Shown: in pieces, positions 5,791 through 52,415 of the stretch
Layout: each line of letters begins with the position of its first letter
Numbering within the stretch: position 1 is the stretch's first letter
NCBI GenBank assembly: GCA_903837175.1
Contig: CAILTR010000055.1
Coordinates: 819 to 64,818, forward strand
Length of the DNA: 64,000 nucleotides
Direction: 5' to 3'
Source: an uncultured bacterium
GTDB taxonomy: Bacteria; Patescibacteriota; Minisyncoccia; Moranbacterales; GWC2-37-73
The notes under the pieces: generated by a model
What the model was told of the DNA's origin: nothing
Databases searched by the model: none
Seen by the model: the letters and a program-made list of their open reading frames with translations, nothing else
Made by a program: the position numbers and the translations under genes

Positions 5791-6939
5791 ATGTTTAATA
5801 AAATTAGAAAAATTGTAAAGTCCAGCGTGGTTTTCTTTTTGATTTTCCCCGCATATATCGCTGCTCATATGGCAGTTTATTTTTCGTTGGCTTATTTTTT
5901 CCCATTTTCCTTGCCGTTCGAAAAGAATATTGTTAAATTAGTCCTGTTTTTATTGGGTGCTTTTCTCGGCTTTAGCATTATGATCTCGACGTTGCTAGCG
6001 CATCGTTGGGATAATCATTTTAACCGCAAATACTATTTTCTTTCCGGCGTCTGGGTTGGTTTGATGATAAATCTTCTCCTCTTTTTTGCTTTCGGTTGGC
6101 TGGTTATTTTATTCAGTGATTTAGTTGGAATTAATCCGCCCGAAAAAACCATCGGAGCGCTGGCTATTTTTGGGGCCGTAATTTATTCCTTGTATGGGAT
6201 TTTGAATGCCTTTACCCCGATTGTAAAAAAGATTAATGTTTCGATTAATAACTTGCCTAAAAAATGGATTGGTAAAAAAATTGTCCAAATTTCAGACGTG
6301 CATCTCGGGCATATTTATCGGGATCATTATTTAAGCGAAGTTGCTAAGCGGATTAATCGCTTAGAACCGGATGCAATTGTAATTACGGGCGATCTTTTCG
6401 ATGGCACTGACGGTAATATTGAGATTTTTATTAAACCGCTTAATCTGCTCGAGGCTCCGAAAGGTATTTTTTACGCCCTGGGAAATCATGAAACTTATTT
6501 GGGAACTGATAAAACTTTTAAAACTTTAGCCAAGACTAAAATTACTTGTCTGCGAAATGAAATTAAAACCGTAGATGGTTTGCAGTTTATCGGGATCGAA
6601 TTTCCAGGCCATGGCGAAAAAATTAATGTCGTTAAAACGATCAAAGAGATTTCGAATTTTAAGCGAGCTTGTCCGAGCGTTTTACTCTGGCATATGCCGA
6701 CTCAGGTTGCAAGAATTAGAAAACTCGGAATTTCCCTGATGCTTGCTGGCCACACGCACAAGGGTCAACTTTTTCCCTTCGGCTTTGCGACCAGTTTTAT
6801 GTTTCGTGGCTACGATTACGGTTTAAGACAAAAAGATAATTTTTCTATTTATACTTCTTGTGGGCTTGGCGCGTGGGGGACGCCGATGCGAACCGAGGGC
6901 CATTCGGAAATTGTTGAGATAACCTTAGCGAAGGGATAG
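5791..6939 (+). CDS. Membrane-bound metallophosphoesterase (calcineurin-like, YkuE/YaeI-like).
   Basis: N-terminal TM helices are followed by the motifs 'ISDVHLG', 'ITGDLFDG' and 'GNHE' and a C-terminal 'GHTH'. The extended -10 'tgtgttataat' ends 7 nt before the ATG, suggesting a possibly leaderless transcript. Confidence 0.8.
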   Translation: MFNKIRKIVKSSVVFFLIFPAYIAAHMAVYFSLAYFFPFSLPFEKNIVKLVLFLLGAFLGFSIMISTLLAHRWDNHFNRKYYFLSGVWVGLMINLLLFFAFGWLVILFSDLVGINPPEKTIGALAIFGAVIYSLYGILNAFTPIVKKINVSINNLPKKWIGKKIVQISDVHLGHIYRDHYLSEVAKRINRLEPDAIVITGDLFDGTDGNIEIFIKPLNLLEAPKGIFYALGNHETYLGTDKTFKTLAKTKITCLRNEIKTVDGLQFIGIEFPGHGEKINVVKTIKEISNFKRACPSVLLWHMPTQVARIRKLGISLMLAGHTHKGQLFPFGFATSFMFRGYDYGLRQKDNFSIYTSCGLGAWGTPMRTEGHSEIVEITLAKG

Positions 6940-8266: not shown

Positions 8267-9409
8267 ATGTCAAAAATAATCACAGCGAGCAAAGGAAATC
8301 TTTTTCAAGAAATAAAAAAACTGCTTGAAAATGCCAAAAATAAGGTTGTGCAAACAGTAAACACGACTATGGTTTTGACTTATTTTGAAATTGGTCGTTT
8401 GATTGTGGAGGATGAACAAAAAGGCAAAATTAGAGCGGAATATGGTTCAGAAACCTTGGAAATCTTGAGTAAAAAATTAATGAAAGAATTCGGTAAGGGT
8501 TGTTCAGTAACAAACCTGAAGCAAATGAAGACATTTTTCTTATTGTATAAGAAAGGTCAGACAGTGTCTGACGAATTTAAAAACTCCAAAGTGTTGTCTC
8601 GAAAAATTGAAAAAACAGGAAATCAGCAGACATTGCCTGTCAATTTTCAGGAATACCATTTTTCTCTTTCATGGTCGCACTATGTTCGCCTAATTTCCCT
8701 CAAAGATACTCAAGAGCGCAATTTTTATGAAAAAGAATGCTCAGAAAATTGTTGGTCAATAAGAGAACTTGATCGACAAATAAATTCGGCTTTGTTTGAA
8801 AGGATTGTTTTAAGTAAGGACAAGAAAGGTGTTTTGGTGGATAATTTGAAAAAATATCATACTCCAGAAAATCCCCAAGATATTCTAAAGGATCCTTATA
8901 TTTTAGAATTTTTAGATCTTGATGAAAATGTAAAATATTCCGAAAATGAGTTAGAGCAGGCAATTATTGATAATTTGCAAAAATTTTTACTTGAATTTGG
9001 CAAAGGTTTTAGTTTTATTGCTCGTCAAAAAAGATTCAGTTTTGGCTCAGATCATTTTTATATTGACTTGGTTTTTTATAATCGACTTTTGAAAGCCTTT
9101 GTATTGATTGATCTCAAAATTAACAAGCTAACTCATCAGGATTTGGGGCAAATGCAAATGTATGTGAATATGTTTAATCGCTTGGAGAAGAAAGCCTGGG
9201 AAAATCCTACTATCGGTTTAATTTTGTGCAAAGAAAAAAATGAAATTGTGATTGAATATACTTTGCCGGAAAATAGCAATATTTTTGCTCGAGAATATAA
9301 ATTGTATCTTCCGAGTAAAATTGAATTGAAAAAGCAAATCCAGAAAGCAGAGAAGTCGTTCAAGGAAAGAGAGCGAACAGCTGCTCGAATAGGCAAAGCA
9401 AAAAGTTAA
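8267..9409 (+). CDS. DUF1016 / YhcG-family PD-(D/E)xK nuclease.
   Basis: The C-terminal 'FYIDLVFYNRLLKAFVLIDLKINKLTHQDLGQMQMYVNMFN' matches the YhcG PDDEXK core. The N-terminal 'LTYFEIGRLIVE' is typical of the family. The gene is flanked by 43-nt direct repeats. Confidence 0.7.
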   Translation: MSKIITASKGNLFQEIKKLLENAKNKVVQTVNTTMVLTYFEIGRLIVEDEQKGKIRAEYGSETLEILSKKLMKEFGKGCSVTNLKQMKTFFLLYKKGQTVSDEFKNSKVLSRKIEKTGNQQTLPVNFQEYHFSLSWSHYVRLISLKDTQERNFYEKECSENCWSIRELDRQINSALFERIVLSKDKKGVLVDNLKKYHTPENPQDILKDPYILEFLDLDENVKYSENELEQAIIDNLQKFLLEFGKGFSFIARQKRFSFGSDHFYIDLVFYNRLLKAFVLIDLKINKLTHQDLGQMQMYVNMFNRLEKKAWENPTIGLILCKEKNEIVIEYTLPENSNIFAREYKLYLPSKIELKKQIQKAEKSFKERERTAARIGKAKS

Positions 9410-10381: not shown

Positions 10382-11686
10382 ATGAAGAAAACAAAAAAAA
10401 TCTTAATCTGGGTCGGGGTGGCGGTTTTAATTGTGATTGTCGTTATTTTTTATTTTAAAAGTAAAAAGCCAGTGACAACTTATACGACAGCTGACGCAGT
10501 TAAGGGCACGCTAGTGCAAACTGTCTCGGTTACGGGCGACCTGGTAGCCAAAGATGAGATTACGCTTAATTTTGAACTGGGCGGGCGAGTGAGTAAGGTT
10601 TTTGTTAAAACTAGCGATGAGGTTGCCGCTGGGGATAAGATTGCAACTTTAACTGACGCTTCGCTGCAAAAGCAACTTGACCAGGCTCAAGCTGGGCTTG
10701 ATCAGGCGATTGCTAACGCTGGCGCTAACAGTGATACGCTCAGAGAAGCGAAAGTTTCTAAAGACAATACCGAAAATACCTTGGATGATACGGAAAACTT
10801 AAATAAGCAAAGTATCGATGCCTCGCAGCAAGCCGTGGATAATGCCCAAAAATATTATGATGATGCAAAAGATTTTTATGATGGTTCTCCAAGCGCGCAA
10901 AATAAACTGACGCTCACAACAGCTGAAAATGCCTTGGATTCTGCTAAAGAAAGTTTAAAGACGGTAAGGGAGCAAGCAGATTTAAGTCAAACGAATGCCG
11001 AGAACGCAGTAGCTAGCGCCAAGGCTAGAGTTAAAACAGTCGAGTCTGACTTTGCCAAGGCCTCTAGAAATGCAACCGTGGCTGGGGCGCGCGCCGCTTA
11101 TGGTCAAGCAATGCTTAATTTAGCCAAGGCGACCCTAGTTTCTCCAGTTAACGGGATTATTACGGAAGTCAATAATAAGCCGGGCGAAATTTTAGGCACG
11201 GGCGTAATTAAGGAAGCTTTTTCAAGGGTGATGTCTATGGATATGATTATCGAGTCTAAAGTACCGGAATCAGACATTGTCAAACTAAAACTCGGGCAAC
11301 ACGCTAAAATTACTTTTGATGCCTTAACTTTAGAGGATATCTATGAGGGGGAAGTGATTGAAATTGATCCAGCCTCGACGACGATTCAGGACGTGGTTTA
11401 TTACCAAATTAAATTAAAACTAAATAGTGTTGATATCCGCATTAAACCTGGGATGAGCACCAACATTGCCATCAGCACGGCGGAAAAAACTGGCATTATT
11501 TCGGTACCTCAACGAGCGATTAAGCTTGAGGGTGAAAAGAAATATGTTGATGTTTTACAAATAGCTGATAATACGACGAAAAAAGTTTATATTGAAACTG
11601 GGCTAGAAGGAGACGAAGGCATGGTCGAAGTTAAATCCGGACTTAAAGGCGGCGAGAAGGTAGTGACGTTCGTGGTGACGAAGTAG
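10382..11686 (+). CDS. HlyD-family membrane fusion protein / periplasmic adaptor (MacA-like).
   Basis: An N-terminal TM is followed by a biotinyl-lipoyl-like 'GDKIATLTD' segment, a long coiled-coil, and a beta-barrel/MPD C-terminus. It lies in an operon with the ABC ATPase and FtsX permeases. Confidence 0.75.
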   Translation: MKKTKKILIWVGVAVLIVIVVIFYFKSKKPVTTYTTADAVKGTLVQTVSVTGDLVAKDEITLNFELGGRVSKVFVKTSDEVAAGDKIATLTDASLQKQLDQAQAGLDQAIANAGANSDTLREAKVSKDNTENTLDDTENLNKQSIDASQQAVDNAQKYYDDAKDFYDGSPSAQNKLTLTTAENALDSAKESLKTVREQADLSQTNAENAVASAKARVKTVESDFAKASRNATVAGARAAYGQAMLNLAKATLVSPVNGIITEVNNKPGEILGTGVIKEAFSRVMSMDMIIESKVPESDIVKLKLGQHAKITFDALTLEDIYEGEVIEIDPASTTIQDVVYYQIKLKLNSVDIRIKPGMSTNIAISTAEKTGIISVPQRAIKLEGEKKYVDVLQIADNTTKKVYIETGLEGDEGMVEVKSGLKGGEKVVTFVVTK

Positions 11687-11841
11687 TTTTTTAGGCTTTA
11701 GCTTATTAGCTTCGTTAGCTTTTAGGGAAATGCAAAAGATGGGTGGGTTGAAAATTTGGAAATAAAAAAATCCCCGTACCTTTTTGCTTGGAATATTAAA
11801 TATTCACAACCAGCAGGGACGAGGAAAGGAGTAATTCACGG

Positions 11842-12093
11842 CTATCTATGGTCTCCGCAGTTTGGACACGTTGGCCCACTGCCTAAAATATGCATAGGTT
11901 TTCTCCAAGAATTACAGATATGCGTGCGACACCGAGTAAGGTGCCCCGCTATTCCGTAAAAGAAAGCTAAGATGGCAAGGGTGATGCCTTCCAGCGGATG
12001 GTAGGTGGCTGTGCCGACTGCATAAAAGACAATTGCAAGACAGATCAATCCCCACATTTTAAAAAGCGAAAACTTTTTGTTAGTTAATTTCAT
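11842..12093 (-). CDS. Small membrane protein with a Cys-rich C-terminus (possible zinc ribbon).
   Basis: 83-aa ORF antisense to the operon direction in an intergenic gap. It has two predicted TM helices and a 'C..C...CPNC' C-terminus. Support is weak. Confidence 0.3.
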   Translation of the reverse strand: MKLTNKKFSLFKMWGLICLAIVFYAVGTATYHPLEGITLAILAFFYGIAGHLTRCRTHICNSWRKPMHILGSGPTCPNCGDHR

Positions 12094-12293
12094 TTTTTTG
12101 CCTTTGGCTTCATTGAGCCACTAAGTTAGTAAATACTAAAAAGAACCACGATATCTAATTATACGCTAAAATAATGGAAGTGTCAACAGTTTGAAAGCCT
12201 GTGCTACACTCGCTCGCATTCGCCTTCTTGCTAAAGAGGGGAATAAAAATAATTTGTAAATTTGTGGGGACTGTAATTTGTAGAAAATATTTT

Positions 12294-13019
12294 ATGTCAT
12301 TGATTGTTGTTCAAAATTTAAGTAAGACTTACGAAACCGAAGGCGTGAAAACGCCGGTTTTGCATGAGGTTACTTTCGAAATTAAAAAAGGCGAGTTTAT
12401 TTCCATTATGGGTCCATCAGGCTCTGGCAAATCAACCCTAATGCAAATTTTAGGGATGCTGGATCGGCCGACGGAGGGAACCTATTTATTGGAAGGAAAA
12501 AATATTACCCAATATTCTGATGATGAAATGGCAAAAATTCGCAATAAGAAAATTGGTTTTGTTTTTCAGTCCTTTAATTTATTGCCGAGAACTTCGGTGT
12601 ATGAAAATACGGAGCTGCCCCTGCTTTATGATGAAGATCATTTGGAGATGAATAACGAGAAAAAAATAACCAAAGCTTTAGCGGCCGTTGATATGAGTCA
12701 TCGCACAAACTATCTTTCTAACCAACTTTCTGGTGGAGAAAAACAACGGGTAGCGATTGCGCGCGCTTTAGTTAATAATCCAGAAGTTATTTTTGCTGAT
12801 GAGCCAACGGGGAACTTGGATTCAAAGTCTGGCTTGGCGGTAATGCGAATTCTCCAACAACTCAATGACGTTGGGCACACGGTAATTTTAGTCACACATG
12901 AAACTTATACCGCTCGTCACGCCAAACGCATCCTAAATATGCTCGATGGCCGCATTGTTTCCGACGAACTCGTCAAAGACCGCTTGATTGCTGATGGAGA
13001 AGGAGAACTCCTAAAATAA
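12294..13019 (+). CDS. ABC transporter ATP-binding protein (MacB/LolD-like).
   Basis: Walker A 'GPSGSGKST', signature '[15 protein letters not shown]' and Walker B '[11 protein letters not shown]'. The start was chosen at '[11 protein letters not shown]'. Confidence 0.9.
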
Positions 13020-13029
13020 ATTAAAAAGC

Positions 13030-13140
13030 AAAAATCAAAATGGAAAATGACATTGTAAAATGTAAAATTTTTCATGCATTTGATAATTTTTAATTTTAAT
13101 TTGTCATTTTGATTTTTGAGATTTACATTTTACATTTCAT
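13030..13140 (+). repeat. Composite inverted-repeat element of modules X (tgtcattttgattttt) and Y (tttacattttacattt). This 'empty' copy lacks an internal gene.
   Basis: The left arm 'aaaaatcaaaatggaaaatgaca ttgtaaaatgtaaaa' and right arm 'tgtcattttgatttttgagatttacattttacattt' are related to the ends flanking the four-helix-bundle pseudogene at 14415-14886 and to 52285-52320. Confidence 0.5.
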
Positions 13141-13166
13141 TCTTTGATTAATAAGTTATAAATTAG

Positions 13167-14408
13167 ATGAAATTAAGTTCCCCCATCAAAATTTCCTATA
13201 ACAACCTGCTGGCGGCTAAATTCCGTTCTTTTTTAACGATTTTGGGAATTATCATTGGGATAGCCTCGGTGATTATCGTGATGGCAATTGGCGCCAGCGC
13301 CCAGCAACTCATTTTGAGTCAAGTTTCGGGAATTGGTTCTAATCTGGTCAGTGTCCTGCCGGGAGGCTCGGATGAAAAAGGTCCGCCAGCTTCGGCGCTG
13401 GGGATTGTGGTGACAACCTTAAAAGAAACTGATCTTGAAGCTATCCTTCAGAAAAGGAATGTGCCAAATGCTGCGAGTGGCTCGGCTTACGTGAGTGGAG
13501 TTGGCCTGATGAAATATCGAAGTAATTCAGCCGAAAGTAGTTTTCAAGGCGTTTCGGCTAGCTTTCCAAATGTGGAAAGTGTTATTCTAAAGTCGGGAAG
13601 ATTTTTTACAAATGAAGAAGAATCCGGACTAGCTCGGGTAGCGGTATTGGGACCTGGTCGTGCGGTTCAGCTTTTTGGCAATGAAGATCCTATGGGAAAA
13701 GTTTTTTCGATTAAAGATACGAACTTTACCGTCATTGGCGTTTTTGAGGAAAGAGGCTCGAGCGGTTTTACAAATACCGATGACCTGGCTTATATTCCGC
13801 TGGAAACCGCGCAGAAAATCTTGCTGGGAATTAGTCATATCAATAGCATGCGCATTAAAATTGACTCGCCCGCTAATATGGAAAGGGCCACTGCTGATGT
13901 TAAATATGTCCTGAGAACTCAGCATAAAATAAAAAATGTAACGGATGAGGATTTTTCGGTGCGTAATACCGCCCAGGCAATTTCGACGATTACGAATATT
14001 ACTAATGTTTTAAAATATTTTCTTACCGGGATTGCTGGAATTTCACTTTTGGTTGGGGGGATTGGCATTATGAATATCATGCTCATTTCGGTTAATCAAC
14101 GAATTCGGGAAATTGGACTTCGCAAAGCCGTTGGCGCTAGAGCGCGGCACATCATTGCCCAATTTTTAATTGAAGCGGTTTTTCTGACTTTGATTGGCGG
14201 TCTGGCGGGTATTGTTTTTGGAATTGCGCTTTCATTTTTAGCCTCCGTGGTTATTAACGCCTTAGGTTATAAATGGGAGTTTATTATTTCGCTTACCTCC
14301 ATCGGGGTAGCAACCTCCGTAGCGATTTTGATCGGCGTTATTTTCGGACTGTATCCAGCCCGCAAGGCTTCGCGAATTTCACCAATGGAAGCACTGAGAT
14401 ATGAATGA
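13167..14408 (+). CDS. ABC transporter permease, FtsX/MacB-type.
   Basis: A MacB_PCD-like periplasmic domain sits between TM1 and TM2. The C-terminal four-TM FtsX domain has the 'REIGLRKAVGA' motif. Confidence 0.85.
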   Translation: MKLSSPIKISYNNLLAAKFRSFLTILGIIIGIASVIIVMAIGASAQQLILSQVSGIGSNLVSVLPGGSDEKGPPASALGIVVTTLKETDLEAILQKRNVPNAASGSAYVSGVGLMKYRSNSAESSFQGVSASFPNVESVILKSGRFFTNEEESGLARVAVLGPGRAVQLFGNEDPMGKVFSIKDTNFTVIGVFEERGSSGFTNTDDLAYIPLETAQKILLGISHINSMRIKIDSPANMERATADVKYVLRTQHKIKNVTDEDFSVRNTAQAISTITNITNVLKYFLTGIAGISLLVGGIGIMNIMLISVNQRIREIGLRKAVGARARHIIAQFLIEAVFLTLIGGLAGIVFGIALSFLASVVINALGYKWEFIISLTSIGVATSVAILIGVIFGLYPARKASRISPMEALRYE

Positions 14409-14414
14409 TTTTAA

Positions 14415-14458
14415 ATTAAAATTAAAAAATCAAAATGGAAAATGACAAAGCAAAATTT
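14415..14458 (+). repeat. Left inverted-repeat end (rc of module X) of the four-helix-bundle cassette.
   Basis: 'aaaaatcaaaatggaaaatgaca'. Its reverse complement occurs at 14851-14868. Confidence 0.5.
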
Positions 14459-14806
14459 AAAAATGAATTCAAAAAAAGATTATATAATTTTGTGTTACGT
14501 CTGATAAGATTTATTGATACTCTCCCAAAAAGTTCCGTAAATGACATTATGGGTAAGCAATTATTAAGAAGTGGGACAAGTATCTTAGCAAATTATGTAG
14601 AAGCTAATTCGGCAAGTTCGAAAAAAGATTTTATAAACTTTTTTACCCATTCCTTGAAATCATCAAATGAATCAAAAGTTTAGTTGACTTTACTGAGAGA
14701 CACGCATAAAGGAGAAAAGCAAGAAATAGTGTGGTTGCTAGCAGAGTTAATCGAAATTTCTAATATTATAGCCAGTAGTATCCTTACGCTAAAAGGTAAG
14801 AAATAA
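14435..14806 (+). pseudogene. Four-helix-bundle protein (23S rRNA intervening-sequence protein family) interrupted by an in-frame TAG at 14681-14683.
   Basis: '...LANYVEANSASSKKDFINFFTHSLKSSNESKV*LTLLRDTHKGEKQEIVWLLAELIEISNIIASSILTLKGKK' aligns end-to-end with the intact paralog at 29709-30059. The stop replaces the conserved Gln of 'ETQL' (CAG to TAG). Confidence 0.55.
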
Positions 14807-14846
14807 TTTCTTATCATCTAGTGAAGAGACCAAAATTTTTTATTTT

Positions 14847-14886
14847 AAATTGTCATTTTCCATTTTGAGATTTACATTTTTCATTT
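14847..14886 (+). repeat. Right inverted-repeat end (modules X-ga-Y) of the four-helix-bundle cassette. It directly abuts the start of the second permease gene.
   Basis: 'tgtcattttccattttgagatttacatttttcattt'. Confidence 0.5.
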
Positions 14887-14889
14887 ATT

Positions 14890-16146
14890 ATGTTTAAACG
14901 CCTTCTCTTATCAATAAAACTTGCCTCCCGCAGTTTGACCATTAACATTGGTCGAACGGTTTTGACATTGGTGGGAATTATTATTGGAATTTTATCCGTA
15001 ATTGTCGTCACTTCCAGTGGTCAAGGTGTTAAGGAATATATTTTAGGCCAAGTCAATAGTTTTGGGACGGATATTATTCAGGTTGAAACGAAAGTTCCAG
15101 CTACGGGCAAAACTTCTTCGGCTAACGCGACAGGTCAAGCGCAAGGGATTCAAATTACAACGCTAAAAGTTTCCGACGGGGAAATGCTGAAAAAAATTCC
15201 AAATATTGATAAAGCCGCCCCAGCTTCGATTGGCCAAGAGTTGGCTACTTATCAAGCTACGAATAAACGGGCGATGATTTTTGGGGTTGGCGCTGATTAT
15301 CCTTTTGTGGATACAGCTACCAAGGTCGCGCAGGGGGCTTTTTATTCGCAGGGCGATGATAATGGCCTAGCGCAAGTAGTTGTGATTGGGAGCGACGTTA
15401 AAGACGCCCTCTTTGGCGATCAAGAAGCCATCGGCAAGGAAATTAAAATTAAAAGTTTAAATTTCCGCGTGGTTGGCGTGGCTGAAAAAAGAGGGGCGGT
15501 AACTTTTTTAAATTATGATGAATTTATTTTTATGCCGGTGCAAACGCTCCAAAAGAAAATCTTGGGGATCGATTATGTCCGCATGATTACGCTAAAAGTT
15601 AAAGATGCGAATTTAATTGACGTGACGGCCGCTGACGTTTCCGACGCGCTTAAGCGTCAGCATAAAACGCCCAGGGAGGAACAAGAGGATTTTTCCGTTT
15701 CAACCATCCAAGAAGCCCAGAAAATAATTGGTGACGTTTTTGGAACGATTAATATTTTGCTTTTGGCGCTTACTTCAATTTCCTTGGTCGTCGGTGGGGT
15801 GGGGATTATGAACGTCATGTATGTGGCGGTCGTCGAACGAACTTTTGAAATTGGTTTGCGCAAAGCGGTCGGCGCCACCGCCTCAGATATTCGCAACCAA
15901 TTTTTATTTGAAGCGATTTTTATAACGCTAATTGGCGGCTTGATTGGGATTTTACTGGGCTACTTAATTTCTTTCGGACTTTCTTATTTAATTAAGAGTC
16001 TTGGTTTTAACTTAAATTTCCCCGTGACGCTAAGCGCAATTTTCCTTGCCACCAGCTTTTCGATGGCTACCGGCATTATCTTTGGCTACTATCCCGCCTA
16101 CAAAGCCTCTAAGCTCTCGCCCATGGAAGCGCTCAGAAAAGAATAA
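14890..16146 (+). CDS. Second ABC transporter permease, FtsX/MacB-type.
   Basis: Same architecture as 13167..14408, with 'FEIGLRKAVGA'. Confidence 0.85.
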   Translation: MFKRLLLSIKLASRSLTINIGRTVLTLVGIIIGILSVIVVTSSGQGVKEYILGQVNSFGTDIIQVETKVPATGKTSSANATGQAQGIQITTLKVSDGEMLKKIPNIDKAAPASIGQELATYQATNKRAMIFGVGADYPFVDTATKVAQGAFYSQGDDNGLAQVVVIGSDVKDALFGDQEAIGKEIKIKSLNFRVVGVAEKRGAVTFLNYDEFIFMPVQTLQKKILGIDYVRMITLKVKDANLIDVTAADVSDALKRQHKTPREEQEDFSVSTIQEAQKIIGDVFGTINILLLALTSISLVVGGVGIMNVMYVAVVERTFEIGLRKAVGATASDIRNQFLFEAIFITLIGGLIGILLGYLISFGLSYLIKSLGFNLNFPVTLSAIFLATSFSMATGIIFGYYPAYKASKLSPMEALRKE

Positions 16147-16274
16147 GACAGCTTAAAAGCTTTTTAGGCGTTAGCTTTTTAGGTAAATGAAGAAATGGAT
16201 AAAAGTGGCTGGAATGGCTTAGTTGTGGTAAGCTTGAGTAGTAAATAATTGAATAATTAAATTAATTGAGCAAT

Positions 16275-23288: not shown

Positions 23289-23499
23289 TAGTTAACAATA
23301 GCTTAAATATTAGGAAAAGCAATACCGTGGACCATGGGGCACAGGGCCTTAAAATTTCGAATTTCCAATTCTGAATTTTGAATCAATTTTGAATTATTTA
23401 ATGTTTCAAACATTGGGTCATTAGAATTTTATTCAAAATTCGAAATTCAAAATTCAAAATTATTTCCGTATTCTAAAATCTACCCTTTACTCTTTATCA

Positions 23500-27137: not shown

Positions 27138-28076
27138 ATGAATGAAAATCCTTTTATGTCAGTAGTTGTGCCTTTGTATGATGAGGAAGGTAATGTAAAG
27201 GAACTACATCGTCGCATTTTAGAGGCTTGTCAGGAAATTGGAAAGCCTTTCGAAATTATTTTCGTTGATGATGGTTCTAAGGATAAAACCGTTGAAAACT
27301 GCAAAGGTCTTTCGCCGCTTACGCTGATTAAATTTCGCAAGAATTTTGGCCAAACCGCTTCTTTCGACGCCGGGATTAAACAAGCCAAAGGTGAAATTAT
27401 TGTGATGATGGATGGGGATTTACAAAATGATCCTGCCGATATTAAGCTATTACTGGCTAAAATCGAAGAAGGTTTTGACGTGGTGGCTGGTTGGCGTTGG
27501 AAGCGAAAAGATAGCCTAAGTAAAAAAATCTTTTCCCGTACAGCTAATCTTTTGCGCAAGATTTTAATTCAAGACAAAATTCACGATAGTGGTTGTTCGC
27601 TAAAAGCCTATAAGCGAAGTTGTTTTGAAGACATGGATCTTTTTGGCGAAATGCATCGTTTTATCCCAGCACTTTTGGAGTTACAAGGTTATAGCGTTGG
27701 GGAAGTTAAGGTTAGCCACCATCCTCGAACTTCTGGGGTGACAAAATATAATTGGAAGCGCGCGATGAAGGGTTTTGTGGATATGCTTTCAATTTGGTTT
27801 TGGCGAAAATATTCGAACCGACCACTCCACCTTTTCGGGGGAACTGGCATTATTTTCTCAATTATCGGTTTTGGAATTTTGGCTTGGATGGCAATTGAAA
27901 AGATCTTTTTTGGAGCTAAGCTTATGAATACTAACTGGCCACTGATTGGAATTTTCTTCGTTTTAGTCGGCATCCAGCTTTTTATCTTTGGCCTGCTAGC
28001 TGATATCTTGCTTAAGGTTTACTATAGAAATCAAAAGCGGATGAATTATAATATTAAAGAGGTGGTTAAGGTCTAG
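27138..28076 (+). CDS. Second GtrB/ArnC-like GT2 with C-terminal TM helices.
   Basis: 'VVVPLYDEEGNV', 'FVDDGSKDKT', 'DGDLQNDP' and two C-terminal TM helices. Confidence 0.8.
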   Translation: MNENPFMSVVVPLYDEEGNVKELHRRILEACQEIGKPFEIIFVDDGSKDKTVENCKGLSPLTLIKFRKNFGQTASFDAGIKQAKGEIIVMMDGDLQNDPADIKLLLAKIEEGFDVVAGWRWKRKDSLSKKIFSRTANLLRKILIQDKIHDSGCSLKAYKRSCFEDMDLFGEMHRFIPALLELQGYSVGEVKVSHHPRTSGVTKYNWKRAMKGFVDMLSIWFWRKYSNRPLHLFGGTGIIFSIIGFGILAWMAIEKIFFGAKLMNTNWPLIGIFFVLVGIQLFIFGLLADILLKVYYRNQKRMNYNIKEVVKV

Positions 28077-28078
28077 AA

Positions 28079-28113
28079 CATAGAACATATAACATATAAC
28101 ATGTAACAGGGGA
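28079..28113 (+). repeat. Tandem heptamers AGAACAT AGAACAT ATAACAT ATAACAT GTAACAG.
   Basis: Same family as 24603-24640. Confidence 0.6.
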
Positions 28114-28255
28114 TAATATAAAGTAAGTAAATATAAAAAATAATAAATTTATCGGAGGAGCTTGGTAAGATGCCTTGGTTGAAAATCAATCGCATTAACA
28201 ATGAATGTGGAAATTTTTTGTTCCATGTTATGTGTTCTATGCTCCATATAATAAT

Positions 28256-29581: not shown

Positions 29582-29587
29582 AATAGT

Positions 29588-29660
29588 TCATAAGGTTATA
29601 AAGTTCATAAAGTTCATAAGGCTTTGAACTCATAAGGTTTTTAGATTTATAAAGCTGTGA
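29588..29660 (+). repeat. Array of 8-9-nt units (GTTCATAAG / GTTATAAAG / GTTCATAAA ...).
   Basis: Direct reading. An inverted array sits at 30084-30125. Confidence 0.6.
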
Positions 29661-29708
29661 GGCTATAGAGTCTTCAGAATTGTAAATTTTGAACAGGAAA
29701 ATAAAAAA

Positions 29709-30059
29709 ATGGCAAAATTTGAGAGCTTTGAAGATATGCTTGTTTGGCAAAAATCAAGAATTCTTGTTTTGGACAGCTATAAAGCATTTAATAATAGTAG
29801 AGACTTTTCTTTCAGGGATCAAATTTGTAGGGCTGCGGTTTCAGTCATGAACAATATAGCTGAAGGATATGAGAGAAAGGGAAATAAGGAATTTGTGAAA
29901 TTTTTGTATATAGCAAAGGGTTCTTGCGCCGAAGTTAGATCGATGCTTTATTTGGCGGTCGATTTGAAGTATATAGATAAGACTGAATTCGAAAAGACAT
30001 ATAATCAGACTCTTGAAATTTCAAAAATGTTATCGAGCTTAATAAAAAAGATTTGTTAG
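29709..30059 (+). CDS. Four-helix-bundle protein (23S rRNA IVS protein family), intact.
   Basis: 'FEDMLVWQKSRILVLDSY...AAVSVMNNIAEGYERKGNKEFVKFLYIAKGSCAEVRSMLYLAVDL' matches the canonical family pattern. Confidence 0.8.
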   Translation: MAKFESFEDMLVWQKSRILVLDSYKAFNNSRDFSFRDQICRAAVSVMNNIAEGYERKGNKEFVKFLYIAKGSCAEVRSMLYLAVDLKYIDKTEFEKTYNQTLEISKMLSSLIKKIC

Positions 30060-30083
30060 AGATACTCAGAATTTGTATTCAAT

Positions 30084-30125
30084 AAGACTTTAAAAACTTT
30101 ACAAACTTTAAGAACTTTATAACTA
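30084..30125 (+). repeat. Array (AACTTTAAA AACTTTACA AACTTTAAG AACTTTATA). It is the inverted counterpart of the array at 29588-29660.
   Basis: Direct reading. Confidence 0.6.
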
Positions 30126-32600: not shown

Positions 32601-32822
32601 ATGAGAAATGAAATTTATTCAAATGGTCATAGGTTTTTAACGCAACAGTTAAAGAAGGCACGAGAAAATTCTGGCTTTAGTCAGAAAGATGTTGCTGAGC
32701 TTTTAACTAAAACTCAATCTTATGTTTCCAAGATTGAGGCGGGGCAACGTCGTATCGATGTAATTCAATTACAAGAATTTGCAAAAATTTATAGAAAGAA
32801 GATTAATTTTTTTATTAAGTAA
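32601..32822 (+). CDS. XRE-family HTH protein. It is a controller (C)-like regulator of the R-M cassette.
   Basis: 'GFSQKDVAELLTKTQSYVSKIEAGQRRIDVIQLQEFAKIY'. It is 73 aa and sits immediately upstream of the small nuclease candidate. Confidence 0.65.
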   Translation: MRNEIYSNGHRFLTQQLKKARENSGFSQKDVAELLTKTQSYVSKIEAGQRRIDVIQLQEFAKIYRKKINFFIK

Positions 32823-32826
32823 ATTT

Positions 32827-33273
32827 ATGTGGGCAAAAAATCTAACTAAGATTAATGATGGAATTTTTAGGACTATTAATGGTAATTCCGATGAAATGAT
32901 AGGCGTCGGAAGGTGCATGAAGGCAGGTTTTCCATGTTCTCGGGCAGATGTAACTAACGGGAGATATGATGCCATTATTGATGTGGGTAATAACAAGTTA
33001 CTAAGAGTTCAAATAAAAGGAACATCTGGTGGAAGCGTTAGTTTTACGGGTGGAGGAAGAAGTGGAAAGCAAATCAGTAGAACAGTTAAACAACGGACAT
33101 ATCGATATTCTCCGGATGATTGTGATTTAATTCTGGTCGTAGATGGAAGAAGTGGGGAATGTTATATTATTCCAATTGAAGATATTCAACAAATGAGTAA
33201 TTCAAAGTCACTCGATAAACTGAGTAAATATAAAGAAAATTGGGATATTCTGAAAACGATGGCAGGAATCTAA
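32827..33273 (+). CDS. Candidate small restriction endonuclease (PD-(D/E)xK-like). Alternatively, a toxin partner of the XRE protein.
   Basis: 148 aa, translationally coupled to the XRE gene. The possible motif is 'YDAIIDV...LLRVQIKG' (D...QxK). It converges on, and overlaps by 4 nt, the methyltransferase gene. Confidence 0.35.
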   Translation: MWAKNLTKINDGIFRTINGNSDEMIGVGRCMKAGFPCSRADVTNGRYDAIIDVGNNKLLRVQIKGTSGGSVSFTGGGRSGKQISRTVKQRTYRYSPDDCDLILVVDGRSGECYIIPIEDIQQMSNSKSLDKLSKYKENWDILKTMAGI

Positions 33274-52047: not shown

Positions 52048-52278
52048 CTATTTCTTTTTAAGAATTAACTCAGGGTTGACACACTGTAAATCACACTTTG
52101 CGTTCTTAGCGCCGTTTTCAAGCATCTTTTTTGAGCAATCGCTAAGGGTTTGTTGACAACGGCTGGTGCTTTTATCAAAATAATTTAAATTTACCTCATA
52201 GCCAAAAAGGGGAAGAGCTAGATAAATAATTACCGTGATACCGGCAACCCAGACGATAAATTTTAAGAAATGAAACAT
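52048..52278 (-). CDS. Small single-TM protein with a four-Cys C-terminus.
   Basis: It is translationally adjacent to the GT2 gene. The start was set at the second Met, with the repeat element immediately upstream. Confidence 0.35.
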   Translation of the reverse strand: MFHFLKFIVWVAGITVIIYLALPLFGYEVNLNYFDKSTSRCQQTLSDCSKKMLENGAKNAKCDLQCVNPELILKKK

Positions 52279-52284
52279 AAAAAA

Positions 52285-52320
52285 TGAAAAATGCAAATCT
52301 CAAAATGGAAAATTTCGGAA
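52285..52320 (-). repeat. Third copy of the X-gaga-Y element, in reverse-complement orientation.
   Basis: Its reverse complement 'gaaattttccattttgagatttgcatttttcattttt' matches 14851-14886. Confidence 0.5.
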
Positions 52321-52415
52321 TCGCTATATAATATTTTAAAAATATGAGCGAAGCGAATATTAAAATTTTGATTTTTGATTTTTAAATTTTGATTTATTAT
52401 TATCTCCCTATTCCC

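What the first reader, a model, noticed from the sequence alone, without database searches (positions are those of the whole stretch)
14415..14886. Four-helix-bundle gene with an in-frame TAG, sitting as an inverted-repeat-flanked cassette between the two permease genes; an empty copy and a third end copy elsewhere
The 23S rRNA intervening-sequence protein homolog at 14435-14806 is full length apart from a single in-frame TAG. It lies exactly where the family has a conserved Gln (CAG to TAG).

It is bracketed by inverted ends. On the left is 'aaaaatcaaaatggaaaatgaca' at 14425-14447. Its reverse complement on the right, 'tgtcattttccattttga' at 14851-14868, continues into module Y 'gatttacatttttcattt'.

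The same two-module element without any gene occurs in the previous intergenic gap (13030-13140). A third right-end copy sits upstream of the small gene at 52278 (52285-52320). In all three cases the X-gaga-Y end directly abuts a downstream start codon.

This pattern fits an IVS-like or MITE-like mobile cassette that carries, or captures, a four-helix-bundle gene and supplies an outward-facing promoter.
Basis: seen in the sequence. Interest (0 to 1): 0.6.

Follow-up and report, generated by a model that had tools for sequence, protein, structure and literature searches.

The report
Hairpin-flanked four-helix-bundle gene cassette, inactivated copy
Between two transporter genes of an uncultured Patescibacteria (CPR) bacterium sits a broken copy of a roughly 450-base cassette (a small four-helix-bundle gene enclosed by about 50-base inverted repeats) that recurs, with gene-less hairpin derivatives, between operon genes across many CPR lineages and resembles the intervening sequences of 23S rRNA.

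Summary
The structural observation is real. A PF05635/TIGR02436 four-helix-bundle (4HB) gene lies at 14435-14806 with one in-frame TAG, enclosed by inverted arms. A gene-less hairpin of the same arms lies at 13016-13146, and a weak third copy at 52277-52406.

One detail is wrong. The TAG replaces an invariant Trp (TGG to TAG), not Gln. Sister populations at about 95% identity keep the intact gene at the same site.

The cassette is one member of a large family. In 79 loci from many CPR lineages, the 123-codon gene has conserved arms about 50 nt long. These run from -23 to +34 around the ATG, and from the stop codon to +52. The cassettes sit in sense orientation, flush between co-directional genes.

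- **Selection:** synonymous sites are saturated between lineages, yet the non-coding arms and the synonymous sites of codons 2-12 stay conserved.
- **Subfamilies:** distant 4HB subfamilies, including a second intact copy at 29709-30059, have different but still complementary arms.
- **Site turnover:** orthologous operons show full, solo, remnant, empty or unrelated-hairpin states at the same junctions.

Best reading: an IVS-type selfish cassette with MITE-like derivatives. Its mobility mechanism, RNase III processing and promoter activity are inferred, not shown. I found no description of it in the searched literature.

The parts
14410..14470 (+). Left arm of the cassette. It runs from just after the permease-1 stop, across the 4HB ATG (14435), to about codon 12.
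   Evidence: The nhmmer left-arm profile, built from 79 elements, matches at E=1.4e-11. The repeat finder gives the inverted arm 14418-14462. Synonymous sites of codons 2-12 are 0.83 identical across the family, against 0.47 elsewhere in the gene.
14435..14806 (+). Four-helix-bundle (23S rRNA IVS protein / TIGR02436) gene of 123 codons, inactivated by a nonsense codon.
   Evidence: PF05635 E=3.5e-18. TIGR02436 E=2.4e-23. PDB 2RLD E=6.4e-14. The intact orthologue P0001 (98% identity) lies at the same locus in L003 and L004.
14681..14683 (+). In-frame TAG replacing the invariant Trp83 codon (TGG to TAG).
   Evidence: TGG in L003, L015 and L005. Trp is the same in all 11 homologues aligned. TAG ends 14 of 44 long ORFs in the window, so it is an ordinary stop here. 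The TAG is present in an independent assembly, L002.
14823..14894 (+). Right arm (modules X and Y), ending 3 nt before the permease-2 ATG at 14890.
   Evidence: The nhmmer right-arm profile matches at E=2.6e-11. The inverted arm is 14836-14880/14886. In the RNA fold the arms pair, with a 19-bp perfect helix that contains the 4HB AUG (-98 kcal/mol, z=-3.5).
14850..14878 (+). Sigma-70-like match TTGTCA-17-TACATT inside the right arm. This is a candidate only.
   Evidence: Consensus scan, 9 of 12 positions matched. The same match occurs at 13101-13129. The region has 12 matches against 6.0 +/- 2.6 in shuffles.
13016..13146 (+). Gene-less ('solo') hairpin of the same family, between the ABC ATPase gene and permease 1. 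It keeps the ATGGAAAATGACA start of the lost gene.
   Evidence: Arms 13022-13069 and 13085-13132, 48 nt, 75% complementary. nhmmer E=6e-07 and 7e-10. Fold z=-2.1. It is identical in L003 and L015 and conserved in L178, but absent from L174 and L179.
52277..52406 (-). Weak third copy: a degenerate solo whose right end lies 3 nt before the ATG at 52278.
   Evidence: X with 3 mismatches and Y with 1 mismatch. nhmmer E=0.003 and 0.007. The fold is not better than shuffles (z=-0.57).
13167..14408 (+). Flanking host gene: MacB/FtsX-type permease 1.
   Evidence: PF12704 and PF02687.
14890..16146 (+). Flanking host gene: MacB/FtsX-type permease 2.
   Evidence: PF12704 and PF02687. Orthologues at 73-85% identity have 24- to 269-nt spacers upstream, with no 4HB gene called.
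29584..30125 (+). Second, intact 4HB cassette of another subfamily (gene 29709-30059). It has its own inverted arms, flush to the upstream stop (29581) and the downstream ATG (30128).
   Evidence: PF05635 E=3.5e-37. Arms 29584-29628 and 30087-30125, 34-36 nt, 72-82% complementary.

Best explanation
The feature is a decayed copy of an IVS-type selfish cassette that is widespread in Patescibacteria (CPR).

**What the unit is**
- The unit is about 450 bp: a 123-codon four-helix-bundle gene (S23p / TIGR02436 family) embedded in imperfect terminal inverted repeats about 50 nt long.
- The repeats cover about -23 to +34 around the ATG, and the stop codon to about +52.
- It sits in sense orientation and fills the spacer between two co-directional, probably co-transcribed, host genes. 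Here these are the two MacB-type permease genes.
- In this population a TGG to TAG mutation at invariant Trp83 has killed the gene. Sister populations keep it intact.
- The hairpins at 13.0 kb and 52.3 kb are internally deleted, MITE-like derivatives.

**Shown**
- The architecture.
- Family-wide purifying selection on the protein and, separately, on the arms as nucleic acid.
- Multiple copies per genome.
- Differing occupancy (full, solo, remnant or empty) at orthologous junctions.
- Occasional pseudogenes.

**Inferred**
- The element has spread by insertion into, and recombination between, operon spacers.
- In the operon transcript the arms pair into a long stem that sequesters the 4HB AUG. 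This stem would be an RNase III substrate, as in 23S rRNA intervening sequences, releasing the 4HB message and separating the flanking cistrons.
- The sequence-conserved arms are cis sites for a protein, most plausibly the encoded 4HB pentamer.
- The right arm supplies an A/T-rich leader, and possibly a promoter, that keeps the downstream gene expressed.
For: **Family and architecture**
- 3902 homologues were found, and the listed 120 are all 80-98% identical and come from many CPR lineages.
- 79 genome loci share the arm consensus.
- Pairwise identity within the roughly 50 arm columns (mostly 0.5-1.0 per column, about 0.75 by my estimate) compares with 0.37 expected from composition, and falls to about 0.3-0.4 just past both ends.
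- 69 of 80 copies have a same-strand ORF ending no more than 100 nt upstream (median gap 22 nt). 67 of 80 have one starting no more than 130 nt downstream (median 55 nt).

**Selection**
- Identity at four-fold degenerate sites is 0.32 against 0.28 random, at 75% amino-acid identity.
- Synonymous identity is 0.83 in codons 2-12 and 0.47 in codons 13-118.
- The arms can pair: -26.5 kcal/mol against -12.7 for shuffled arms. The window cassette folds with a terminal stem (z=-3.5).
- Distant subfamilies (32-49% identity) and the window's second copy have different arms that are still complementary.

**Dispersal and turnover**
- Census: 81 full copies, 23 solos and 33 single arms in 834 kb. Controls: 1 solo in 430 kb.
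- Near-identical copies occur in different contexts of one genome, with identity ending at the arms.
- Orthologous MacB operons differ at the same junctions.
  - Permease 1 | permease 2: cassette (window, L003, L015); Y remnant only (L174); 24-nt empty spacer (L179); unrelated hairpins (L176, L178).
  - ATPase | permease 1: solo (window, L003, L178); empty (L174, L179); a GxxExxY cassette with its own inverted repeats (L176).
- 4 of 84 unique copies are pseudogenes that retain their arms.
- Window against L003: solo 147/147 and cassette 477/481 identical, while the permease genes are 95-97% identical (p=1.7e-4).

**Known parallel**
- 23S IVSs carry an S23p ORF inside a stem cut by RNase III (PMC4990558).
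- PF05635 ORFs occur in CPR 16S and 23S rRNA insertions (PMC11270868).
Against: - No target-site duplication or precise empty/filled pair was found. Spacers at 'empty' sites have diverged too far to define insertion points.
- Synonymous saturation between lineages shows that most copies are old residents, not recent arrivals.
- The 99.7% identical pair L037/L039 differs in the outermost parts of the arms. That fits gene conversion better than fresh insertion.
- Nothing favours an RNA stem over DNA repeats.
  - A left arm pairs as well with another element's right arm as with its own (-27.1 against -26.5 kcal/mol, p=0.63).
  - The + and - strands fold equally well.
  - Wobble-compatible mismatches show no strand bias (143 against 136), and most arm mismatches are transversions (805 against 279 transitions).
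- A 4HB protein has no known recombinase or nuclease activity.
- 8 of 65 downstream genes are PrgI family, and solos precede such genes too. This could mean a host function rather than insertion preference.
- The divergence mosaic around the locus (92-100% identity) shows frequent recombination in general, not specifically of the element.
Confidence: 0.6

Rival explanations
1. This is a host-domesticated regulatory or processing module, not a mobile element. The 4HB protein is a trans-acting nucleic-acid-binding factor. The hairpins, with or without the gene, are its operators or processing sites in front of selected genes. Copies arose by duplication and are kept alike by gene conversion.
For: - Strong purifying selection on the protein and arms with saturated synonymous sites, meaning long residence.
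- The hairpin ends lie next to start codons.
- The same gene families recur downstream: PrgI in 8 of 65, plus type IV secretion and pilus ATPases.
- Solos sit in front of PrgI-like genes.
- The L037/L039 identity stops inside the arms, as gene conversion would produce.
- Arms do not covary within elements, as expected for sequence-specific protein sites.
Against: - The same junction in orthologous operons of 73-98% related genomes carries a cassette, a remnant, nothing, or an unrelated hairpin family.
- Downstream genes span 90 Pfam families, with no coherent regulon.
- 4 of 84 copies are pseudogenes.
- Different 4HB subfamilies with different arms coexist in one genome. The window itself has two.
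- A GxxExxY gene with the same flush inverted-repeat layout occupies one of these junctions.
Confidence: 0.22
2. The repeats are ordinary intergenic signals of this genome (a promoter box and/or bidirectional terminator-like palindromes). The 4HB gene merely happens to lie between two of them.
For: - A TTGTCA-17-TACATT match lies in both right arms.
- The genome has other long intergenic hairpins, at 23353-23461 and 28076-28244.
- Shine-Dalgarno sequences are rare (4 of 43 genes), so A/T-rich leaders are the norm.
Against: - The arm profiles hit only three places in 64 kb.
- In the 79 elements aligned, the arm consensus overlaps the ORF start and stop, with synonymous-site constraint in codons 2-12.
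- Distant subfamilies conserve complementarity, not the promoter-like hexamers.
- No terminator-like site was found in either spacer.
Confidence: 0.05
3. The gene is still functional. The TAG is an assembly or sequencing error, or is read through or recoded.
For: The rest of the ORF is intact and differs from the intact orthologue at only 3 other nucleotides. TGA is a rare stop here (2 of 44 long ORFs), so codon usage is somewhat unusual.
Against: - TAG ends 14 of 44 long ORFs.
- The same TAG is in an independent Logan assembly, and the contig is seen in 3 samples.
- The position is an invariant Trp, not a residue encoded by TAG in any known recoding.
- No tRNA gene lies in the window, though 64 kb is only a small part of the genome.
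- Three other family members carry independent disruptions.
Confidence: 0.06
4. It is the accessory protein (Avd) of a diversity-generating retroelement.
For: Avd proteins are described alongside PF05635 in the DGR review PMC10053308, and 62% of DGR reverse transcriptases co-occur with an Avd_like domain (PMC8934634). That DGRs are common in CPR rests on my own knowledge.
Against: - No reverse transcriptase was called within 10 kb on either side. The only RVT_3 hit is an RNase H gene.
- No template or variable repeat pair was reported around the gene.
- The other contexts inspected are ordinary operons.
Confidence: 0.03

Closest known systems
23S rRNA intervening sequences carrying an S23p ORF (Leptospira, Coxiella burnetii; PMC4990558)
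   Same: - Same protein family (PF05635 / TIGR02436).
- Similar size (about 430-750 nt).
- An ORF enclosed by terminal inverted repeats that form a long stem.
- Transcribed as part of a host transcript.
- Sporadic distribution.
- The ORF decays in some hosts.
   Different: - It lies between protein-coding genes of an operon, not in helix 25 or 45 of 23S rRNA.
- The arms overlap the ORF start and stop.
- There are many copies per genome, plus gene-less hairpin derivatives.
- RNase III excision has not been tested here.
Co-transcribed intergenic MITE-like repeats (Neisseria Correia elements, enterobacterial ERIC/IRU). This comparison rests on my own knowledge.
   Same: - Imperfect palindromes about 110-150 bp long in transcribed spacers next to genes.
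- Dispersed, with variable occupancy between strains.
- No transposase known.
- Correia elements are RNase III substrates and can carry promoters.
   Different: - The CPR solos have a full-length relative that encodes a conserved protein.
- The sequences are unrelated.
- No target duplication was seen (Correia elements duplicate TA).
Avd accessory proteins of diversity-generating retroelements
   Same: A related four-helix-bundle fold and family. bAvd is a basic pentamer that works on nucleic acid together with a reverse transcriptase.
   Different: There is no reverse transcriptase and no template/variable repeat pair nearby. The gene is bounded by its own inverted repeats.
Free-standing homing-endonuclease genes and integron cassettes (small promoterless genes wedged in sense between conserved genes)
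   Same: - A compact, sense-oriented insertion between operon genes.
- An imperfect palindrome is associated with each unit.
- A GxxExxY (PD-(D/E)XK) gene with its own inverted repeats occupies a neighbouring junction in L176.
   Different: - The 4HB protein has no nuclease or recombinase motif.
- There is no integrase, no cassette array, and no GTTRRRY core at the hairpin end (sequence).
- The palindrome arms flank the ORF rather than both following it.

Membership tests
PF05635 / TIGR02436 four-helix-bundle protein (23S rRNA IVS protein, S23p) | Significant full-length match to the family profile above the curated cut-off | tested here: met
   PF05635 scores 66.2 bits (cut-off 33.8), profile positions 4-105 of 106. 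TIGR02436 scores 82.4 bits (cut-off 24). PDB 2RLD matches at E=6.4e-14.
PF05635 / TIGR02436 four-helix-bundle protein (23S rRNA IVS protein, S23p) | Conserved RxxxSxxxNxxE motif (PMC3936711) and an intact reading frame | tested here: not met
   The motif is present (R45-S49-N53-E56 in LLRSGTSILANYVE). The frame is broken by TAG at Trp83, so the window copy is a pseudogene of the family.
23S rRNA intervening sequence (IVS) | Inserted in a 23S (or 16S) rRNA gene helix | tested here: not met
   It is flanked by two FtsX/MacB permease genes. Rfam finds no rRNA in 12800-15200. A search for conserved rRNA motifs found only a 16S 3'-end motif in L068, about 2 kb from a cassette that is followed by a protein-coding gene, and one short 23S motif match in L016.
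23S rRNA intervening sequence (IVS) | Terminal inverted repeats form a stem that encloses the ORF | tested here: met
   45-nt arms, 80% complementary. The minimum-free-energy fold pairs the arms, with a 19-bp perfect helix (z=-3.5).
23S rRNA intervening sequence (IVS) | Excised from the transcript by RNase III | not testable with these tools
MITE / non-autonomous inverted-repeat element (the solos) | Short, gene-less, with terminal inverted repeats, many dispersed copies, and a related longer element | tested here: met
   23 solos of about 110-250 bp sharing the arms of 81 full cassettes in 834 kb.
MITE / non-autonomous inverted-repeat element (the solos) | Target-site duplication and a transposase encoded by the autonomous partner | tested here: inconclusive
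   No direct repeat was seen at the ends of recent copies or at filled against empty junctions. The encoded protein matches no transposase family.
Diversity-generating retroelement (Avd component) | Adjacent reverse transcriptase and template/variable repeat pair | tested here: not met
   No RVT_1 gene within 10 kb. No such direct repeat pair.
Integron gene cassette / attC | attC palindrome 3' of the ORF with R''/R' cores (GTTRRRY), in an array, with IntI | tested here: not met
   The arms flank the ORF. No GTTRRRY core is present at the hairpin ends (sequence). The neighbours are core operon genes, with no integrase in the locus listing. No attC covariance model was available.
Known anti-phage defence component | Match to a PADLOC model | tested here: not met
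   0 families at E<=0.01.

The most novel reading that the evidence does not exclude
S23p-type four-helix-bundle proteins are the trans-acting factor of a previously unrecognised class of mobile element. The pentameric protein would recognise the short-repeat-built inverted arms, as DNA or as the processed RNA stem, and drive copying into transcribed spacers. It might do this with a host reverse transcriptase, in the way Avd assists DGR retrohoming. On this reading, the classical 23S rRNA intervening sequences are only the rRNA-resident subset of the class, and the GxxExxY cassettes are a parallel nuclease-based version.
Probability: 0.2. Interest if true: 0.85.

Novelty: new variant of a known kind. 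Interest (0 to 1): 0.6.

Why it matters
**An old open question**
- The function of the S23p ORF and the origin of 23S rRNA intervening sequences have been open since the early 1990s (PMC4990558). The idea that the ORF serves mobility was never testable with one or two rRNA copies per genome.
- Here the same gene-in-a-stem unit occurs in 79 recovered chromosomal loci, with thousands of protein homologues, in ordinary operon spacers of CPR bacteria. It comes with gene-less derivatives, subfamily-specific arms and site-to-site turnover.
- That gives a comparative handle. The cis sites are delimited to about 50 nt by conservation, and the protein is under strong purifying selection.
- It also gives clear experiments: arm binding by the protein, RNase III cleavage, and mobilisation assays.

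**Practical consequences**
- These cassettes and solos are easily mistaken for functional operon members. PF05635 genes inside cas operons were read that way in PMC3936711.
- Many homologues sit on very short contigs, which is consistent with the repeats breaking CPR metagenome assemblies.

Tried and rejected
1. **TAG as recoded Gln.** Rejected. The codon is TGG in relatives, and TAG is a normal stop here.
2. **Within-element covariation of the arms.** None was found.
3. **Strand bias of G-U-compatible mismatches, to tell RNA from DNA.** None was found.
4. **Orientation of solos from arm asymmetry.** Uninformative. Solos are nearly symmetrical (14 against 9).
5. **Metagenome scan with permease 1 to find empty sites.** The nearest relative was only 51% identical, so it was no use for that purpose. 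It served as a 430-kb negative control.
6. **Recent horizontal spread between lineages.** Rejected as the general rule, because four-fold sites are saturated.
7. **Location inside rRNA.** Not found in the fetched loci.
8. **Known RNA family.** No relevant Rfam match. The only hit is a sub-threshold snoRNA match inside permease 1.
9. **Defence-system membership.** No PADLOC match.
10. **Phage carriage.** No protein match and no right-arm match in IMG/VR.
11. **Integron attC.** Rejected, because there is no core site, no array and no integrase.
12. **Literature.** Six full-text searches found no paper describing 4HB cassettes or solos in CPR operon spacers. The library is incomplete, so this is not proof of novelty.
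Full report
**1. The observation**

The window is part of an 84.7-kb metagenomic contig (ena:ERZ27313295:k141_216488). Close relatives of its proteins are named Moranbacteria or Moraniibacteriota by their sources, which are CPR/Patescibacteria lineages. G+C content is 38%.

- The ORF at 14435-14683 and its in-frame continuation to 14806 give a 123-residue protein.
  - It matches PF05635 (23S_rRNA_IVP) over almost the whole profile, E=3.5e-18.
  - It matches TIGR02436 'four helix bundle protein', E=2.4e-23.
  - It matches the pentameric Bacteroides protein 2RLD, E=6.4e-14.
- The single interruption is the TAG at 14681-14683.
  - The cassette arms are 14418-14462 and 14836-14880: 45 nt, 80% complementary.
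  - A gene-less pair lies in the previous spacer at 13022-13069 and 13085-13132.
- The 18-nt X module occurs five times in the window against 0.23 expected. The Y module occurs three times with at most one mismatch.
- The third copy, on the minus strand at 52277-52406, is weak.

**2. The TAG**

- In the orthologous locus of sister populations the gene is intact and the codon is TGG.
  - These are L003 and L004, and L015, the GTDB representative 'Ja1_bin-0683'.
  - They are about 95-96% identical to the window across the operon.
- The codon is also TGG in an 82%-identical Moranbacteria copy.
- Trp83 is the same in all 11 homologues aligned, and is present in 2RLD.
- TAG is an ordinary stop in this genome, ending 14 of 44 long ORFs.
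- The TAG allele is in an independent Logan assembly that is 100% identical over 10 kb, and the contig was seen in three samples.

The window copy is therefore a recent nonsense pseudogene. Three other family members carry independent disruptions while keeping their arms: L045 (K14*), L077 (E56*) and L078 (frameshift).

**3. A large family with a fixed architecture**

- The protein has 3902 database relatives. The listed 120 are all 80-98% identical and come from many CPR lineages, and many sit on very short contigs.
- A scan of one genome per species returned 79 loci (L015-L093), several of them from the same genome.
- Nearly every copy has the same two arms.
  - Left consensus: AAttnAAAattnAAAaATCAAAATGnAAAATGACAatGnAAAaTTTAAAAaTGAaTTt. 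It spans the ATG.
  - Right consensus: tAAntTTnnnAtTTTaaatTGTcATTTTnaatTTTGAtaTTTacAtTTTaaatT. It starts at the stop codon.
  - The two are reverse complements of each other.
- Column identity is mostly 0.5-1.0 across about 50 arm columns (about 0.75 by my estimate). It drops to about 0.3-0.4 immediately outside, near the compositional expectation of 0.37. The unit is thus about 23 + 372 + 52, roughly 450 bp.
- The cassettes sit between co-directional genes.
  - 69 of 80 have a same-strand ORF ending upstream, with a median gap of 22 nt.
  - 67 of 80 have one starting downstream, with a median gap of 55 nt.
  - Only 2 and 5 respectively have an opposite-strand neighbour alone.
- The arms fill the spacers, so the gene is integral to the element rather than captured.

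**4. Selection**

- Between lineages, four-fold degenerate sites are saturated (0.32 identity against 0.28 random). Amino-acid identity averages 75%. The protein is old and under strong purifying selection.
- The non-coding parts of the arms are conserved despite this saturation.
- Synonymous third positions of codons 2-12, which lie in the left arm, are 0.83 identical. In codons 13-118 the figure is 0.47. The arms are therefore functional as nucleic acid.
- The arms can pair: mean duplex energy is -26.5 kcal/mol against -12.7 for shuffled arms.
- The window cassette folds with its ends paired, including a 19-bp perfect helix that contains the 4HB AUG (z=-3.5).

The data do not say whether the relevant form is RNA or DNA.

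- A left arm pairs as well with the right arm of another element as with its own (p=0.63).
- The two strands fold equally well.
- Wobble-compatible mismatches show no strand bias (143 against 136). Most arm mismatches are transversions.

At a deeper level there is covariation of a kind.

- 4HB paralogues of 32-49% identity in the same loci have quite different arms that are still complementary. Most have duplex energies about 15-25 kcal/mol better than shuffles.
- The window holds a second, intact 4HB gene at 29709-30059 (PF05635 E=3.5e-37).
  - Its arms are built of GTTCATAAA-like units at 29584-29628 and 30087-30125.
  - They are again flush to the neighbouring stop codon and ATG.

What is conserved across the family is the gene-inside-inverted-repeat layout, not a particular promoter-like sequence.

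**5. Solos and turnover**

- Arm profiles found 81 full cassettes, 23 gene-less left-right hairpins and 33 single arms in 834 kb of CPR loci.
- They found one solo in 430 kb of mostly non-CPR MacB loci.
- Solos are the two arms joined by a short loop of up to a few tens of nt in most cases. Several keep the ATGGAAAATGACA start, as an internal deletion of the ORF would leave.
- Within genomes some copies are nearly identical in unrelated contexts.
  - L044 and L050 are 96.5% identical over the whole unit including the arms.
  - L037 and L039 are 99.7% identical, but only from about -15 to +50, with different outer arm ends. That fits gene conversion between resident copies.

Orthologous MacB operons (RNase H, membrane-fusion protein, ATPase, permease 1, permease 2) in genomes whose permease 2 is 73-98% identical differ at both junctions.

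| Junction | State | Loci |
|---|---|---|
| Permease 1 / permease 2 | 4HB cassette | window, L003, L015 |
| Permease 1 / permease 2 | 46-nt spacer keeping only a Y-like remnant (agatttacattttttattt) | L174 |
| Permease 1 / permease 2 | 24-nt spacer, empty | L179 |
| Permease 1 / permease 2 | Hairpins of unrelated arm families | L176, L178 |
| ATPase / permease 1 | Solo | window, L003, L178 |
| ATPase / permease 1 | Empty spacer (12 nt in L174, about 20 nt in L179) | L174, L179 |
| ATPase / permease 1 | GxxExxY / PDDEXK_3 gene (TIGR04256, E=1.6e-13) with its own flush inverted repeats | L176 |

This is the presence/absence variation expected of insertion elements. However, the spacers are too diverged to define exact insertion points, and no target duplication was seen.

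Between the window and L003, the solo is 147/147 identical and the cassette 477/481. The permease genes are 95-97% identical and the ATPase region 92% (Fisher p=1.7e-4). The whole region is a recombination mosaic, so this is only suggestive.

L003 and L015 also carry 112 extra nt in front of the cassette. This includes a second, synonymously diverged copy of the last 51 nt of permease 1. That points to import of the cassette together with flanking DNA from another lineage.

**6. How it most likely works**

*Shown:* a conserved protein gene is locked between conserved cis-acting inverted repeats, placed in sense in operon spacers, multi-copy, with gene-less derivatives, pseudogenes and junction turnover.

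*Inferred:*
- It behaves as a selfish element that relies on host operon transcription.
- In the transcript the arms form a long imperfect duplex. This would be processed like the stem of 23S rRNA intervening sequences, which enclose the same kind of ORF and are cut by RNase III (PMC4990558).
- The arm sequences are recognised by a protein, plausibly the encoded pentamer. The arms are built of short repeated units and do not covary.
- The right arm provides the leader of the downstream gene and possibly a promoter (TTGTCA-17-TACATT at 14850-14878 and 13101-13129).

Shine-Dalgarno sequences are rare in this genome (4 of 43 genes), so the absence of one after the arm is not special.

The mobility mechanism itself is unknown. 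A four-helix bundle has no known recombinase activity.

**7. Rivals**

- **Domesticated regulator-plus-operator system.** This fits the age, the selection and the recurrence upstream of PrgI-family and secretion genes (8 of 65). It does not fit the junction turnover, the 90 different downstream families, the pseudogenes, or the coexisting subfamilies.
- **Plain promoter or terminator box.** Excluded by the overlap with the ORF and by the rarity of the motif elsewhere in the window.
- **DGR Avd.** Excluded by the absence of a reverse transcriptase within 10 kb.
- **Read-through or sequencing error at the TAG.** Unlikely (section 2).

**8. Comparison with what is known**

- By sequence, the protein is a member of PF05635 / TIGR02436.
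- The element works like a 23S rRNA IVS but fails the defining location test. No copy in the fetched loci lies in an rRNA gene.
- The solos resemble Correia and ERIC-type co-transcribed MITE-like repeats (my own knowledge), but they have a protein-coding full-length relative.
- Earlier work noted PF05635 genes wedged between cas genes and read this as functional association (PMC3936711). Other work found PF05635 ORFs in CPR 16S and 23S rRNA insertions (PMC11270868).
- None of the six searches of the held library found a description of inverted-repeat-bounded 4HB cassettes and solos in CPR operon spacers.
- There is no Rfam family, no PADLOC model and no IMG/VR occurrence.

**9. Verdict**

- It is a new variant of a known kind.
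- It is moderately to highly interesting, because it turns the old question of the IVS ORF into one that can be tested.

Noticed in passing
window 29584-30125 (gene 29709-30059, +): A second, intact four-helix-bundle gene (PF05635 E=3.5e-37) of another subfamily lies between two co-directional genes. It has its own inverted arms made of GTTCATAAA-like units, flush to the upstream stop and the downstream ATG.
   Followed up: partly
window 23353-23461 and 28076-28244: Two further long intergenic hairpins of unrelated sequence. One has 54-nt arms with a 1-nt loop. The other has 26-nt arms with a 117-nt loop, starting at the stop codon of the upstream gene. Spacer palindromes built of short repeats seem common in this genome.
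   Followed up: no
L003 3863-3974 and L015 (same segment): The sister populations have 112 extra nt between the permease-1 stop and the cassette. This includes a second copy of the last 51 nt of permease 1 that differs at synonymous sites and resembles the L178 allele. It suggests the cassette was imported with flanking DNA by imprecise recombination.
   Followed up: partly
L176 1367-1989: At the ATPase / permease-1 junction, where the window has a solo hairpin, a relative has a GxxExxY / PDDEXK_3 gene (TIGR04256 E=1.6e-13). It is bounded by its own inverted repeats (aagcgactcgaat ... attcgagtcgctt), flush to the stop and the ATG. The gene itself is interrupted by a GC-rich palindrome.
   Followed up: partly
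L176 3232-3500 and L178 3363-3500: The permease-1 / permease-2 junction of two relatives holds hairpins of two other arm families (for example ataagaaacaagatacaag ... cttggttattgtatcttgcttat), again ending at the downstream ATG.
   Followed up: no
loci L034, L066, L074, L075, L079, L080, L092; solos in L037 and L085: Cassettes and solos recur immediately upstream of PrgI-family genes (8 of 65 downstream genes) and near type IV secretion and pilus ATPases. This could be an ancient shared insertion, a target preference or a functional link.
   Followed up: partly
L029 about 6390-6425, L041 about 5975-5995, L053 downstream of the cassette: Small GC-rich palindromes (for example cctgcctgccggcaggcagg) are inserted inside or beside the A/T-rich arms. 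This is a separate mini-repeat family.
   Followed up: no
window, whole: TGA is a rare stop (2 of 44 long ORFs; TAA 28, TAG 14). Shine-Dalgarno motifs precede only 4 of 43 long ORFs.
   Followed up: partly
window 10635-16245 against L003: Divergence is mosaic: membrane-fusion gene 3' end 98.6%, ATPase region 92.0%, solo 100%, permease 1 96.9%, cassette 99.2%, permease 2 95.2%. This indicates frequent recombination between these populations.
   Followed up: partly
window 8267-9409, 32779-33273, and a C-5 cytosine DNA methylase ORF (position not determined): Several nuclease or modification genes are present: YhcG/DUF1016 PDDEXK nuclease, a PDDEXK_5 endonuclease (E=6.8e-07) and a C-5 cytosine methylase (E=3.8e-94). 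Their relation to the repeats was not examined.
   Followed up: no
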